A DNA stretch of 64,000 nucleotides from a phage, in the sequence record PZ445450.1. One strand, written 5' to 3'. The notes under the pieces were generated by a model that saw only the letters and a list, made by a program, of their open reading frames with translations, was not told the DNA's origin and ran no database searches. Positions 3,285 to 52,484 of this stretch are shown here, piece after piece (position 1 is the stretch's first letter; every line of letters begins with the position of its first letter). Made by a program: the position numbers and the translations under genes.

Positions 3285-4325
3285 ATGTCAAAACCTAGTT
3301 TTCCATTAGAGATTTGGGCAGAGGAGGATCAGGTTCTGCCTAACACCCACAGACAGAACAGGCTACGCCCGATTGATGATTTGTGGAGAAAAGGTTGGGA
3401 TCTTGGTCAAAAGCCCTCATGCGAAGAGCTTAACTATATTTTCAATATGCTCGGGACTTGGGCAAAATACATTGCTGACGAGCAGATTCCCGCTCAAGAA
3501 GGCCGTTATCTGGTACGTGATAATAACTTGAGTGATCTTTTGAACATTCCTGTTGCCCGTAGAAACCTTGGGATTATTACTAAGGAAGAGGCAGACGCCA
3601 GGTATGTAAAAGTTACAGGTGATACAATGACAGGCCCATTGGGTTTGCAACGTATCAACTTTAAAGCTGCCGAGACAGATAAGGCTTGGATAGAGACAAC
3701 TATTGGCCCAGATAAGACAACTCTCGACTTTGGGTTAAGTGATAATTTTGGGTCGTTTGATGATGGTGGCACATCTACAATAGATGCGTTTCGTTGGAGA
3801 TTCCAGCCAACTCAGCCGGATATTAATCCAGAGTTCACTTTGATGTACCTTAACGCGATCACGGCTAACCGTGCGCTGTTGAAAGTGGTAGGCAATGTTG
3901 AAGTTGTCGATAACATGAGGTGCAATAACCTTACTATCAGCAATACAGCAACATTCACCAACTGTAATGTGGCTAGTCAGTTGACGGCTGGGTCAGTATA
4001 TGTTAATGGTGGTGCAAGTTGTGACAGTATGGTTGTAAGAAGCCAGCACTGTGTTGTCGGTAACAGAAATGTGGTGCGCTCCGTGAATGGAGTGACGGCT
4101 AACGGTAACGGTGATGTAACGATCACTATCCCGCAGACAGGTGTGCAAGACATCAGAATCGGTGCAAGACTTGTGGACGGCGTTTCTGAATCTCCAATCC
4201 GCAACGGCTACGTTGTCACAGGCTGGCATTTCGGTGACAAAAAAGAGATGCGTGGTTCAACCTACTGGGCAGGACCTTTACAAAAACTTGTAAATGGTCA
4301 ATGGATCACTGTTAATTATGCATAG
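3285..4325 (+). CDS. Tail fibre protein, paralog A
   Basis: RBS AGGAGA before ATG; N-terminus PLEIWAEEDQV.. and C-terminus LVNGQWITVNYA shared with the 5340-6383 paralog; followed by a Tfa chaperone gene. Confidence 0.65.
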   Translation: MSKPSFPLEIWAEEDQVLPNTHRQNRLRPIDDLWRKGWDLGQKPSCEELNYIFNMLGTWAKYIADEQIPAQEGRYLVRDNNLSDLLNIPVARRNLGIITKEEADARYVKVTGDTMTGPLGLQRINFKAAETDKAWIETTIGPDKTTLDFGLSDNFGSFDDGGTSTIDAFRWRFQPTQPDINPEFTLMYLNAITANRALLKVVGNVEVVDNMRCNNLTISNTATFTNCNVASQLTAGSVYVNGGASCDSMVVRSQHCVVGNRNVVRSVNGVTANGNGDVTITIPQTGVQDIRIGARLVDGVSESPIRNGYVVTGWHFGDKKEMRGSTYWAGPLQKLVNGQWITVNYA

Positions 4326-8466: not shown

Positions 8467-11400
8467 ATGCTTCCAATCCCTTTGCTAAAACTTGGTCGTC
8501 ATTTCCTCGATAAGAGAGGTGGAATTAAGGAACTTGCTGTTCTGTCATACCCAATAGACAACAGTGATGGTACAAGCAACACAGTATCCTATGTAAATAG
8601 CTTAGCTATACTTTTTGATGATGGTCAACTTAATATCACGGGCTATAACAGGTTCGGAGAGTGCCGCACTGGGGATCTTGACACGATAAACTATCCCAAC
8701 GAGGCTGCCTGGAACGTTGATCATGTGTGGAGAGCAGACCGTGCGTTTGTGATCCGAACTTTTGATAACCAGTTTTTCTACATCGGCTGCACTGCAGGGC
8801 TTATTGGGTCTGATGCTGCAGGCGGTAATGATGTTTGTGTAAGAGAGTGGACACCTCTTCCTGAACAGATCGTTAAAGGATTGCACCTTGACACCCACCC
8901 AGAGCGCCTTATTGAGGTGATGGGTGGTATTAACAACACTGTCTGGGTTATTGCAGAGGCAGAAGGCACTGGCATACTTAACCTGTATGGGTCTGGTAAC
9001 AACACCTACGGATCTTTGCATGTAGATAAAAATCAGCATGCAACCCCTGTAAAGATTGGTGAGACATCGGAAAATCCTGAAACAGGCCCTTGGAAAAACC
9101 CAAGCATCAACTGCGAGGTGCATGACAACTCTGTTATTTTCGGTGGTCCTAGGGGTTTCTGGATTGCTGGATACGACTTTCTGAGAAATAACAGTAGAAA
9201 CGACCTTGTTTGGCCTCCTGTGCAGATCACTCGTAACGATTTGAGGGGCATTCCTGCAGATGAGGAGTGGAAAGGGTTTATGTGTGGTCCTAACGGGGCA
9301 ATAATTGCCACACAGAGGATGCATAGACCCGATGACCAGCAGCTTGTTAACGTATTCTACGGGCAAGACGTTTGGGGAGATGACACATGGCGTTCCTTAA
9401 ATATCACCTACACCCATGAGGTAATAATGGCTCGTGGGTACGGCACAAGTGGCATTTTCTTCAATAATGGCACTAAGCAGTATCGTGGATTCTCTCGCAA
9501 CTTGTGTAATGATATTGGCGCACAATCTGCAAACAATAGCCCTAGGGCCAATTTTATCCACTATCAAGCTCTTGCTACAGCTAAATATGTTGAGCAACGC
9601 CTGCCAGTTAGCTGGACAGAGAGTGTTTATTTCCAAGGCATCCACAGGGAAGGTTTCTTAGGAACCTTTACTGTTGTTAATGGTAAACTTTGGTGGTCAG
9701 GCATCCCAAGGGGGAGTTTTGCAGGCTCTAACAACCTGTTTGGCGGCAGACTTAATAGTCAGGGGTTCACAGAGGTTCCTGAGAATTGGTATAAAAATGT
9801 CCCAGTAGACAGTTGGGGTGTTGATGATATTTTCGACGTTAACGGTGTTAGCAGCGTTAGCAATATTTACATTGGTGACACGGTCAAGATGAAATTGAAG
9901 CCTCAGCCAGAAGGGGCTACGTTCATTATTGACAAGATTGAACTGGTAAATGCTGCAGGCACGGTTGTTACAGATGCAAATTACCAATTCTCCACCAACT
10001 GGAACCACGGCGGGGCCAATGAAGTTGTTGTTACCCAGTATAACAGAAATGTTAACAGACGTGGCCTGTACTCTGTAAAAATAACTTATCATGACAAGCA
10101 TGGCACAGGCAGAACCCATACGACAAGGACTTTGAACTGGAACACCATAGTTCCTGCGTATCCGTCTAACGGCAAGTGGCATACCGTTGGTAGAAACAAG
10201 CAGTTCCATGTTAACGATACTGTATACTTTGGGCTGAATGGTACTCAGCCTGCAGTAGAAGGTGATACATCATATATGGTCCGACTCCACAGAATGGATG
10301 CTGGATCAGTCACTTACGATGTTACCCAAGAGATTTATGATCAGAGAAGAAATACCTACAACAACTTGGTGCAGACACAGGCCGTATGGGAGTTCAACCC
10401 TAACGGCAGAGGTGGTAAAATGTTGCAGGTTAACGAGCAAAACGGAACGTCGTTAACTGTCCACGAACACCCAGACCCTTGGCCTGATCCTGGAAAACCT
10501 CACCCAGGCGCTCGTACGCTGAAAATTGTCAGCCATGATGTAGGATATTTCGGAATACGCTGGGAAGCTACAGTAAGGTATGCCGACGGGACAACAAACA
10601 ACATAGGGATTACACTTGGTGGCACCAGTGAAGATAACTCGCTGAAAATTGCCTACACTCCTAGAGGTATATCTATTGACAATATGGATGTTGTTCGCAA
10701 TGGTTACGGCGATGTGAATGTCAAAGTTACTCTTGGCGAACATCTTGGTGGGGAAAGGATCATCATGTATGCTTTTGATCATGACCCGCGTACCAACGGA
10801 ACTTATGCAAATCAGGCATGGAGTTACCTGATAAATGCACCTGGGCCGAATACTAAAGAGTTCTACTACGGCATGAAGCGAGATGTGTGCAAGAAAACAG
10901 GAACACATGACTGGATTGCTATCTGCGTTAAAGATGAGCGCACAGCTTGGGATGAGCCTGTTAACAGATGGTTCATAGGTATTCCTACCAGAAGTGATAA
11001 GTATGTCGCAGAATATATTGTATGCATGGGCGGTACCAACCTGAACATGTGTTGGAACGAGGATGCAAACAAATACTCTGATTATGACTATATGAGGGAC
11101 TACTCTTGTAATCAGTGGTTTAACCAATCAACAGGATACCCTCCACGTCAGGCGAGAGTAAACCCTGCAATCTTCACAGATACGCAGGTTTTCTTGACAA
11201 AACAGGCCAACGAGGTTCAGACCTTCAAGAATAAATACGATCCTAACAAGTGGTTCTACAACTGTTACGGCGCATTTTTCTGGGGACCTGGTGAGTTACC
11301 TGGTGGAGGATCTTGCTTGAATGAGGCAACTTACGCCAGTGACTACATCATGGGGCAGGTCAAGAAGTATAAGATAATCCCCGGTCCTGAGACTCTGGGC

Positions 11401-48071: not shown

Positions 48072-48082
48072 GTTTATTTTTA

Positions 48083-48119
48083 GATGGCCTTGACTCCAGG
48101 GCCATCAATAAAGTAAACT
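48083..48119 (+). repeat. Conserved hairpin-promoter repeat, copy 1
   Basis: GATGGCC-TTGACTCCAG-GGCCATC hairpin holding TTGACT, then AATAAAGTAAACT; near-identical at 48704 and 52448. Confidence 0.6.
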
Positions 48120-48271: not shown

Positions 48272-48299
48272 TTGACAAGCTAACTTAGATCAGTATACT
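48272..48299 (+). promoter_or_regulatory. Sigma70-like early promoter
   Basis: TTGACA-N16-TATACT. Confidence 0.6.
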
Positions 48300-48350: not shown

Positions 48351-48692
48351 ATGACTACTATGACCGCCGAAGAAAAAGCCCTGCAGATCGCCGCTCTGAA
48401 AAAACAGATCGCAGACCTTGAGAATAAGATCGATAACTTTGAAATCGACGAGGACAAGTACGACGAAAACTATGATGAATGGCTAGACGAGGTTTATGGC
48501 GAAATTATGATCGGAAACATTTCTTTTCTTCCGTCGCGTATCCTCAAGGAGTTAGATCCTATCGCTTACCGCTGCGGATTTAGCGACTACATCGACAGCC
48601 TGGATATTGAGGACGATGAAGAATACCGGGAATTACAGACAGAGTTGGAAGAAGCAAAAGAAGAGCTTGCGGAGCTGGAAGAAAACGAGTAA
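48351..48692 (+). CDS. Highly acidic early protein (113 aa)
   Basis: About one third Asp/Glu with coiled-coil segments; strong promoter and AAAGGAGA RBS. Confidence 0.5.
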   Translation: MTTMTAEEKALQIAALKKQIADLENKIDNFEIDEDKYDENYDEWLDEVYGEIMIGNISFLPSRILKELDPIAYRCGFSDYIDSLDIEDDEEYRELQTELEEAKEELAELEENE

Positions 48693-48703
48693 GATTATTT
48701 TTA

Positions 48704-48740
48704 GATGGCCTTGACTCCAGGGCCATCAATAAAGTAAACT
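48704..48740 (+). repeat. Conserved hairpin-promoter repeat, copy 2
   Basis: Same GATGGCCTTGACTCCAGGGCCATC..AAAGTAAACT element. Confidence 0.6.
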
Positions 48741-49886: not shown

Positions 49887-50147
49887 ATGCGTAAATTAAA
49901 AAATTTTGATAAAGTTGATGTTGTCCTGAATAATTTTTACTACTGCAACAACAAGGCCATTTGGTGGCGTGATAGTTCCACCGATAAAGTCAAGGCGCGC
50001 TTTCTCCAGGGGCACTGGCAAGGCCGCCCAGTGATTAAAATCATGGGGCAATTGGTAGCGTTTAAAAATTGCCGCCGTGTTGATGACGTTGAGGAGATTT
50101 TAAACATTTTGCGCCACAATAATTTAAAAAATAGTGTTGACAAGTAA
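49887..50147 (+). CDS. Early protein, unknown function
   Basis: 86-aa ORF; 3' end overlaps next promoter. Confidence 0.45.
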   Translation: MRKLKNFDKVDVVLNNFYYCNNKAIWWRDSSTDKVKARFLQGHWQGRPVIKIMGQLVAFKNCRRVDDVEEILNILRHNNLKNSVDK

Positions 50148-50164
50148 ATCTCAATAAGTATAAT
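50137..50164 (+). promoter_or_regulatory. Sigma70-like early promoter
   Basis: TTGACA-N16-TATAAT, then 5' hairpin GGCGGGAAAACTTACCGCC. Confidence 0.65.
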
Positions 50165-50221: not shown

Positions 50222-50845
50222 ATGACCACCGTTAACATTACCACAGGTTACAATTTATCTTTCGACGTGCTGACCGACGAACAAAAAGAAAAAGCCATTG
50301 AAATGGTACGCGAAAGAGAAGAACACAGCGGGGATGACTTTTTTGCAGAAAGTGTAATTGAACACTACAAAGAATATATCTTTCCAGAGTACGGCCTTGA
50401 AGATACCGAAGTACATTGGTCCGGCTTTTGGTGCCAGGGTGACGGCGCGTCAATCAGTGCTGAAAACGTGGATTTAGAAAAATTTTTGCGTAAAGTAAAG
50501 GCCCTGACCAAGTTCCGATCAATTCGTCACTTGTTCGGCACAATGCACGATGGCGAGTTATCAGCCAGTGTTGAACGCGACAAGTACAGCCATTACAGCC
50601 ATGAAAACACTGTAAGCGGATACATTGATACCACCTGGCTAGATCTGACCGCCAAACAAGAAAACAAAGTGGAAGACCTGGAAGAGCTGATCACCGAGAC
50701 GGTACGGGAGCTATCCCGCAAGGTTTACGTAGACCTGGAGGAGGCCTATCTAGAACAGTTCACTACCGAAAACCTGATCGGCCTTATTGAGGCCAATGAT
50801 TGGCGGTTTGATGTGGATGAATATGGAGAGATGAGTTTTTCATAA
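50222..50845 (+). CDS. Acidic early protein (207 aa), unknown function
   Basis: ORF with CAGGAGA RBS; Glu/Asp-rich. Confidence 0.5.
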   Translation: MTTVNITTGYNLSFDVLTDEQKEKAIEMVREREEHSGDDFFAESVIEHYKEYIFPEYGLEDTEVHWSGFWCQGDGASISAENVDLEKFLRKVKALTKFRSIRHLFGTMHDGELSASVERDKYSHYSHENTVSGYIDTTWLDLTAKQENKVEDLEELITETVRELSRKVYVDLEEAYLEQFTTENLIGLIEANDWRFDVDEYGEMSFS

Positions 50846-52435: not shown

Positions 52436-52447
52436 AATTTATTTTTA

Positions 52448-52484
52448 GATGGCCTTGACTCCAGGGCCATCAATAAAGTAAATT
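52448..52484 (+). repeat. Conserved hairpin-promoter repeat, copy 3
   Basis: GATGGCCTTGACTCCAGGGCCATC..AAAGTAAATT. Confidence 0.6.

What the first reader, a model, noticed from the sequence alone, without database searches (positions are those of the whole stretch)
48351..48692. Strongly acidic 113-aa early protein: candidate DNA mimic
About one third of residues are Asp/Glu (EIDEDKYDENYDEWLDE.. and DIEDDEEYRELQTELEEAKEELAELEENE) and it sits behind a strong early promoter. Size, charge and timing resemble Ocr-type DNA-mimic anti-restriction proteins, although there is no sequence evidence of homology.
Basis: inference. Interest (0 to 1): 0.5.

Follow-up and report, generated by a model that had tools for sequence, protein, structure and literature searches.

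The report
Hyperacidic early phage protein, unnamed family
This is a real, conserved, extremely acidic small early gene of an rV5-like coliphage that belongs to a very large, phage-only protein family of unknown function and new fold; it may act as a decoy that blocks a host DNA-binding enzyme, but it is not related to Ocr and no target has been shown.

Summary
Window 48351..48692(+) encodes a 113-aa protein with 36 Asp/Glu, net charge -26 and pI 4.05, the most acidic ORF in the window. It sits behind TTGACA-16-TATACT and an AAGGAG ribosome-binding site. The window is a Vequintavirus, and the protein is identical to bas59_0104 of phage EduardKellenberger.

The family is large (3,846 clusters at 50% identity) and seen almost only in phages. 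Every member examined is strongly acidic. Members sit in early regions: gene 2 of Proteus phage PM16, and PAK_P3 gp86 inside an RNA-seq-defined early block.

Published plating data show this phage is barely restricted by two type I systems, although the window has as many EcoKI sites as chance predicts. Other virulent coliphage groups not shown to carry the family escape too, so the phenotype cannot be assigned to this gene.

Best reading: an acidic decoy inhibitor of a conserved host nucleic-acid-binding protein, target unknown. Anti-type-I restriction is one testable option (~0.2).

The parts
48272..48299 (+). sigma-70-type promoter TTGACA-16-TATACT (11/12 consensus) driving the gene
   Evidence: an equivalent promoter is annotated in phage Gotham
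48336..48341 (+). Shine-Dalgarno AAGGAG, 9 nt upstream of the ATG
   Evidence: read from the sequence
48351..48692 (+). CDS of 113 aa, identical to bas59_0104 of Escherichia phage EduardKellenberger; member of PHROG 9294 (unknown function)
   Evidence: E 3.5e-53; 100% identity; dN/dS 0.08-0.18
48366..48434 (+). N-terminal amphipathic helix (aa 6-28) with heptad I/L pattern; predicted to pair antiparallel with the C-terminal helix
48450..48599 (+). conserved alpha/beta head domain (aa 34-83): acidic helix YDxxLDE, beta-hairpin, two helices carrying the near-invariant S62, L65, D69-P70, A72-Y73-R74-C75-G76, D79-Y80
48618..48683 (+). C-terminal poly-acidic helix (aa 90-111); 12 of 16 non-heptad positions are Asp/Glu
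48702..48739 (+). 38-nt repeated intergenic cassette just after the stop codon (identical copy at 48081-48118, one-mismatch copy at 52446-52483). It forms a stable 10-bp hairpin and carries TTGACT-18-TAAACT hexamers. It marks the 3' boundary of the transcription unit and/or the promoter of the next gene.
   Evidence: (dG -22.3 kcal/mol, z -5.0)

Best explanation
The gene encodes a soluble, folded, hyperacidic early protein that most likely acts stoichiometrically as a decoy. The host RNA polymerase transcribes it from its own strong promoter as soon as the DNA enters the cell. The product would bind and block the positively charged nucleic-acid-binding surface of a conserved host protein. In this model the small alpha/beta head, with its near-invariant DPIAYRCG..DY motif, provides the specific contact. 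The acidic helix 34-49 and the poly-acidic N/C helical hairpin provide polyanionic, nucleic-acid-like electrostatics.

Shown: the gene is real and under constraint; its charge; its promoter; the confidently predicted architecture; family-wide conservation of both the motif and the acidity; phage-only distribution; early-region location of relatives.

Inferred: that it binds a host protein, that the binding is competitive with nucleic acid, and the identity of the target.

My split over targets is about 0.2 for type I R-M and/or BREX (Ocr-like outcome), about 0.1 for RecBCD/AddAB-type nucleases, and the rest for non-defence DNA- or RNA-binding machinery or unknown.
For: Acidity and bulk properties:
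- The protein has 31.9% D+E, net -26, pI 4.05, close to Ocr at net -28.
- All 194 relatives of 200 aa or less are acidic, with net charge -9 to -46 and median 31% D+E. This includes 64-90-aa head-only versions.
- Exposed helix positions are 60-70% acidic with almost no basic residues.

Structure:
- The model is confident (pLDDT 87.9) and shows a helical hairpin plus head.

Family size and distribution:
- The family has 3,846 clusters at 50% identity with E<=1e-3 and 1,709 with E<=1e-10.
- It is found in phages of Enterobacteria, Vibrio, Pseudomonas, Pelagibacter, Clavibacter and Gordonia. This argues for a target conserved across bacteria.

Early expression and position:
- It has its own consensus promoter.
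- The PM16 homologue is gene 2 at the left genome end.
- PAK_P3 gp86 is a member (hhalign 96.9%) and lies within the RNA-seq early block gp74-gp112 (PMC4933390).
- 16 of 36 large IMG/VR contigs carry the gene within 4 kb of an end, against about 5 expected.

Other points:
- No conserved operon partner was found, so it acts as a stand-alone gene.
- The phage shows EOP 0.06-0.83 on EcoKI and 0.5-1 on EcoCFT_I, against 2.4e-5 for lambda-vir in the same assay, but about 1e-4 or zero on type II/III systems.
- The window has 9 EcoKI sites, against 7.6 expected by chance.
Against: - There is no experimental datum for any family member.
- There is no sequence or fold similarity to any known DNA mimic.
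- The strongest conservation is in a non-acidic motif, which is unlike Ocr and ArdA, whose sequences drift while charge is kept (this comparison rests on my own knowledge).
- Charge geometry against B-DNA could not be computed.
- Type I escape also occurs in phi92-like and Felix O1-like phages. The BASEL authors attribute weak type I restriction in general to rare sites (PMC8594841).
- Acidic helices can also be mere solubility or oligomerisation modules.
- Enrichment at contig ends can partly reflect assembly breakpoints.
Confidence: 0.4

Rival explanations
1. Host-takeover factor acting through a specific protein-protein contact, with no role in counter-defence. The invariant DPIAYRCG..DY epitope would bind and inhibit an essential, universally conserved host machine such as RNA polymerase, HU-type nucleoid proteins, replication or division proteins. 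The acidity would be secondary.
For: - The non-acidic motif is near-invariant across phages of different phyla.
- The gene is absent from 5,426 complete E. coli genomes, from plasmids, and almost absent from 185,579 species genomes. This fits a product that is incompatible with lysogeny or toxic to the host.
- Authors of the PAK_P3 transcriptome interpret that phage's early block as host-shutdown 'monkey-wrench' proteins (PMC4933390).
Against: - Toxicity is untested.
- The genome scan used one strict peptide pattern, so absence from cellular genomes is only approximate.
- The Pelagibacter phage HTVC048P that carries a homologue also encodes an integrase.
- Family-wide selection for negative charge is not explained if only the epitope matters.
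Confidence: 0.3
2. Phage-internal role. The protein would be an acidic chaperone, assembly factor or regulator that binds one of the phage's own basic DNA-binding or structural proteins. One variant of this idea is a protein delivered with the DNA.
For: - Some metagenomic relatives are long multi-domain proteins with two tandem copies of the head domain, recurrent xAE(S/T)F linkers and a C-terminal hydrophobic anchor. The resemblance to protease-processed virion polyproteins is my own reading.
- The coiled-coil stalk is typical of oligomeric scaffolds.
Against: - The early promoter and the left-end position in podophages fit a host-directed function better.
- No phage gene co-occurs consistently with the family.
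- The polyprotein context could not be identified.
Confidence: 0.12
3. An ordinary small coiled-coil ORFan with no specific function. The acidity would be compositional chance, and the weak database hits (FlxA, GvpG, SbcC-like) would reflect its nature.
For: Only weak coiled-coil-type Pfam and NCBIfam hits were found, all below their gathering thresholds. Some sources have auto-named relatives 'GvpG' or 'SbcCD ATPase'.
Against: - dN/dS is 0.08-0.18.
- Thousands of relatives share an invariant head motif.
- The confident model is not a plain coiled coil.
- It is the most acidic ORF of the window.
Confidence: 0.03

Closest known systems
Ocr (T7 gp0.3; Pfam PF08684; PDB 1S7Z), a DNA-mimic inhibitor of type I R-M and BREX
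   Same: Nearly the same length and charge (113 aa, net -26 versus 117 aa, net -28). Both are stand-alone genes with a strong host-RNAP promoter. In podophage relatives the homologue is among the first genes at the entering genome end. The host phage escapes type I R-M.
ArdA (Pfam PF07275), an anti-restriction DNA mimic of conjugative elements
   Same: A small, very acidic protein expressed first on entry of foreign DNA. That ArdA targets type I R-M across bacterial phyla is my own knowledge. This family is likewise spread across phages of several phyla.
   Different: No Pfam hit. ArdA lives on plasmids, ICEs and prophages, whereas this family is absent from plasmids and E. coli genomes. The architecture is different.
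T7 Gp5.9 and lambda Gam, acidic helical or coiled-coil DNA mimics that block RecBCD
   Same: Acidic helical early phage proteins. The long acidic helices here would suit insertion into a DNA-binding channel. This is a resemblance from my own knowledge, not a test.
   Different: The only hit is a non-significant PHROG match to the Gp5.9-like family (E 1.9). The head domain has no counterpart. Gam-type proteins are common in temperate phages, unlike this family.
PHROG 9294, with related PHROGs 9396 and 37123 (all 'unknown function')
   Same: Full-length match at E 3.5e-53. The head domain also matches the two related PHROGs at about 1e-10. This is the family it actually belongs to.
   Different: These PHROGs carry no annotation. 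The true family is far larger than they suggest, at 3,846 clusters at 50% identity.

Membership tests
Ocr (T7 gp0.3, PF08684) | Detectable sequence or profile homology to gp0.3 | tested here: not met
   Pfam scan to E=10 gives no ocr hit. hhalign of the family profile against Ocr gives probability 0.2%. The Ocr sequence was verified against 1S7Z.
Ocr (T7 gp0.3, PF08684) | All-helical Ocr fold (1S7Z) | tested here: not met
Ocr (T7 gp0.3, PF08684) | Small, strongly negative protein (about 115 aa, net about -28) | tested here: met
   113 aa, net -26, pI 4.05, against Ocr at 117 aa, net -28.
Ocr (T7 gp0.3, PF08684) | Surface carboxylates spaced like B-DNA phosphates on a dimer | not testable with these tools
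   Model coordinates are not exposed and no multimer prediction is available.
Ocr (T7 gp0.3, PF08684) | Blocks type I R-M and BREX in vivo | not testable with these tools
   Only an indirect phage-level datum exists. Bas59 has EOP 0.06-0.83 on EcoKI and 0.5-1 on EcoCFT_I, against 2.4e-5 for lambda-vir. The same pattern is seen in phi92-like and Felix O1-like phages.
ArdA (PF07275) | Profile match to ArdA and carriage on conjugative elements | tested here: not met
   No Pfam hit.
PHROG 9294 (unnamed phage family) | Full-length profile match | tested here: met
   E 3.5e-53 over residues 1-113, matching profile positions 1-119 of 127.
Unnamed 'DPIAYRCG' head-domain family (defined here) | Head motif: Y41, L45-D46, S62, L65, D69-P70, A72-Y73-R74-C75-G76, D79-Y80 | tested here: met
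   All of these residues are present in the window protein. Column frequencies are 0.74-0.99 over 159 diverged members.
Coiled-coil families FlxA, GvpG, SbcC-like | Score above the Pfam gathering threshold | tested here: not met
   17.6 and 17.0 bits against cut-offs of 26.3 and 30.6. These are compositional coiled-coil hits.

The most novel reading that the evidence does not exclude
The protein is the first recognised member of a third major class of anti-restriction or anti-defence polyanionic decoys, after Ocr and ArdA. The class would have a new fold and be spread through thousands of virulent phages of many bacterial phyla. It would neutralise type I R-M (and perhaps BREX) and so explain why large virulent coliphages with unmodified DNA and many EcoKI sites ignore type I restriction.
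Probability: 0.17. Interest if true: 0.8.

Novelty: new variant of a known kind. Interest (0 to 1): 0.5.

Why it matters
Small acidic early proteins such as Ocr, ArdA, Gam, Gp5.9 and Arn have repeatedly turned out to be precise inhibitors of host nucleases, and useful tools. This family is large, phage-specific, spread across phyla, structurally new and completely uncharacterised.

It also sits in a phage from the BASEL collection whose published plating data contain an unexplained escape from type I R-M despite a normal number of sites. That makes the hypothesis cheap to test, either with one plasmid and lambda-vir or with one deletion mutant.

If the target is instead an essential host machine, the invariant 14-residue motif would define a new, widely used takeover epitope.

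Tried and rejected
- Pfam, NCBIfam and PDB sequence searches, with the single protein and with the family profile, gave only sub-threshold coiled-coil noise.
- BFVD Foldseek found only uncharacterised phage relatives. The AFDB50 library was unavailable.
- Fusion partners: ten long relatives were scanned with Pfam and only one, a DUF6894, gave a hit.
- The genomic context of the tandem-domain polyproteins (locus L077) had no PHROG hits and only a UvdE Pfam hit. The idea that the domain is a packaged, protease-processed internal protein therefore remains unsupported.
- A search for a conserved neighbouring gene over 69 viral loci found only loosely syntenic small early genes at variable distances, with no fixed partner.
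- Literature searches found nothing on this protein or family. I searched Vequintavirus with anti-restriction, DNA mimic and anti-defence, PAK_P3 gp86, and the peptide motif itself.
- Correlating the type I R-M phenotype with presence of the family failed as a discriminator, because phi92-like and Felix O1-like phages are equally unrestricted.
- Other acidic ORFs of the window and the immediate neighbours all fall in unannotated PHROGs, so no rival annotated anti-restriction gene was found in those ORFs.
- There are no tRNA genes near the locus.

Full report
**1. Observation**

Both quoted acidic stretches are present.
- It has 36 Asp/Glu (31.9%), 10 Lys/Arg, net charge -26 and pI 4.05.
- It is the most acidic of the 170 ATG-started ORFs of at least 60 aa in the window.
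- T7 Ocr has 117 aa, 34 Asp/Glu and net charge -28. I verified its sequence against PDB 1S7Z.
- The acidity is concentrated in aa 28-48 (11 of 21 residues) and aa 83-113 (16 of 31).
- A TTGACA-16-TATACT promoter (11/12) lies at 48272..48299. AAGGAG lies 9 nt before the ATG.
- Within 46.5-51.5 kb, five + strand promoters with at least 11/12 matches each precede a small ORF.

**2. Provenance and reality of the gene**

The window is a Vequintavirus (rV5-like myovirus). A 3-kb stretch around the gene is 90-97% identical to about 115 of 120 matching phage records. The protein is 100% identical to bas59_0104 of Escherichia phage EduardKellenberger, Bas59 of the BASEL collection.

All annotated relatives call it a hypothetical protein. 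dN/dS is 0.18 against phage Gotham and 0.08 against an IMG/VR relative with dS near 1. It is therefore a protein under purifying selection.

**3. What it is not**

Pfam, NCBIfam and the PDB sequence library give only sub-threshold coiled-coil noise, whether searched with the single protein or with the family profile. There is no hit to the Pfam ocr or ArdA models. hhalign of the family profile against Ocr gives a probability of 0.2%.

**4. Family**

The protein matches PHROG 9294 (unknown function) at E 3.5e-53. Residues 38-100 also match PHROGs 9396 and 37123.

An alignment of 30 diverse relatives shows that the conserved unit is a head of about 45-50 residues, YDxxLDExYG-(beta-hairpin)-SRxLKELDPIAYRCGFSDYxD. 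The flanking helices vary or are absent.

A profile search of 1.84 billion cluster representatives finds 3,846 proteins at E<=1e-3 and 1,709 at E<=1e-10. Over 159 diverged members the column frequencies are as follows:

| Residue | Frequency |
|---|---|
| D69 | 0.99 |
| A72 | 0.99 |
| L65 | 0.97 |
| D79 | 0.97 |
| P70 | 0.90 |
| C75 | 0.90 |
| Y73 | 0.89 |
| G76 | 0.88 |
| Y41 | 0.88 |
| L45 | 0.88 |
| S62 | 0.86 |
| R74 | 0.74 |

Acidity is a property of the whole family.
- All 194 members of 200 aa or less have 20-40% Asp/Glu (median 31%) and a net charge of -9 to -46.
- This includes head-only proteins of 64-90 aa.
- In the helices, heptad positions are I/L. The other positions are 60-70% acidic and less than 10% basic.

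**5. Structure**

AlphaFold2 with the family alignment gives pLDDT 87.9. The elements are helix 6-28, helix 34-49, a beta-hairpin at 52-59, helices 61-68 and 70-83, and helix 90-111.
- BFVD Foldseek finds only uncharacterised phage proteins, from Clavibacter, Gordonia, Pseudoalteromonas and Pseudomonas phages.

The structure is therefore neither a plain coiled coil nor any known DNA-mimic fold. I could not compute charge geometry because coordinates are not exposed.

**6. Distribution and context**

tblastn finds the family in 169 phage records. These include Vequintaviruses, about 130-kb Vibrio myoviruses, Klebsiella and Serratia phages, Pseudomonas Nankokuviruses, Proteus and Providencia Autographiviridae, and a Pelagibacter podophage.

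It is rare or absent outside phages.
- It is not in 5,426 complete E. coli genomes.
- A strict-motif scan of 185,579 species genomes returns one locus, against 71 loci in IMG/VR.

Relatives sit in early regions.
- In Proteus phage PM16 the homologue is gene 2, at 3.0 kb from the left end, flanked by predicted terminators and upstream of primase.
- Providencia phage PS3 is similar.
- PAK_P3 gp86 is a member (hhalign 96.9%) with its own annotated promoter. It lies in the block gp74-gp112, which RNA-seq defines as early at 3.5 min (PMC4933390).
- Among 36 IMG/VR contigs of at least 30 kb, 16 carry the gene within 4 kb of an end, against about 5 expected. Assembly breakpoints may contribute to this.

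There is no fixed neighbouring gene.

**7. Phage-level restriction phenotype**

The data come from BASEL S1 Data and S5 Table (PMC8594841). Bas59 has 15 EcoKI and 5 EcoCFT_I sites. Stocks were grown on a restriction-less host.

| System | Type | Bas59 EOP |
|---|---|---|
| EcoKI | I | 0.06-0.83 |
| EcoCFT_I | I | 0.5-1 |
| EcoRI | II | 1e-4 to 9e-4 |
| EcoRV | II | no plaques |
| EcoCFT_II | III | no plaques |

In the same assay lambda-vir, with 5 EcoKI sites, gives 2.4e-5 on EcoKI. I counted 9 EcoKI sites in this window alone, against 7.6 +/- 2.8 expected from shuffles. Sites are therefore not avoided, and the sensitivity to EcoRI and EcoRV argues against general DNA modification.

The phage thus has an unexplained, type I-specific escape. 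That is what an Ocr-like factor would produce. However, phi92-like (Bas60-62) and Felix O1-like (Bas63) phages are equally unrestricted. The BASEL authors ascribe weak type I restriction generally to rare sites. The phenotype is permissive evidence, not evidence for this gene.

**8. Interpretation**

The conserved hyperacidity, the early stand-alone expression, the phage-only cross-phylum distribution and the folded head with an invariant epitope fit best with a stoichiometric decoy. Such a protein would occupy the nucleic-acid-binding surface of a conserved host protein. I give this a confidence of 0.4.
- The main rival, at 0.3, is a host-takeover inhibitor acting through the invariant motif. 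It is favoured by the near absence from cellular genomes and by the non-acidic nature of the best-conserved residues.
- A phage-internal chaperone or packaged role is about 0.12. It is suggested only by metagenomic multi-domain relatives with tandem heads and xAE(S/T)F linkers, whose context I could not resolve.
- A functionless coiled-coil ORFan is effectively excluded.

**9. Novelty and score**

The gene is annotated only as hypothetical, and literature searches, including one for the motif itself, found nothing. If it is a polyanionic decoy it would be a new structural variant of a known kind of phage weapon. The function is unproven, so interest is moderate at 0.5. The experiments that would decide it are simple.

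Noticed in passing
window 48081-48118, 48702-48739, 52446-52483 (+): A 38-nt intergenic cassette, TAGATGGCCTTGACTCCAGGGCCATCAATAAAGTAAAC, occurs three times: two perfect copies and one with a single mismatch. It folds into a 10-bp hairpin with dG -22.3 kcal/mol and z -5.0. It carries TTGACT-18-TAAACT promoter-like hexamers. There is no U-run after the stem, so it is not a canonical terminator. It may be an RNA-processing or stability element, or a promoter cassette between early genes.
   Followed up: partly
whole window (EcoKI sites at 9109, 10360, 11769, 19076, 31851, 37935, 38393, 42758, 63812): The window has 9 EcoKI sites, as many as chance predicts. Yet published EOPs of this phage are 0.06-0.83 on EcoKI and 0.5-1 on EcoCFT_I, against 2.4e-5 for lambda-vir (PMC8594841 S1 Data). 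This is an unexplained type I-specific escape, which the source paper does not single out. Phi92-like and Felix O1-like phages share it.
   Followed up: partly
window 50222-50845 (+): A second strongly acidic early ORF of 207 aa with net charge -26 and its own 12/12 consensus promoter at 50137-50164. It belongs to PHROG 5162 (unknown function) and has no Pfam hit. It is another candidate decoy-type protein in the same block.
   Followed up: partly
proteins P0066, P0086, P0089, P0154 (metagenomic); locus L077 10001-12108: These are long relatives of 387-837 aa with two tandem copies of the head domain at the N-terminus, recurrent xAE(S/T)F linkers and a C-terminal hydrophobic anchor. They look like processed polyproteins. 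The only viral contig recovered for a relative of them (123 kb, locus L077) has no recognisable neighbours except UvdE.
   Followed up: partly
L003 (Providencia phage PS3), 2131-2346 and 2931-3131: tblastn reports two places matching the family in this 41-kb podophage's early region. This suggests paralogous copies. The second copy was not examined.
   Followed up: no
records MG0656xx: Seventeen GenBank records named 'Campylobacter phage', with host given as C. jejuni, are 94-97% identical to this E. coli Vequintavirus region. These are probably mislabelled or contaminant phage genomes.
   Followed up: no
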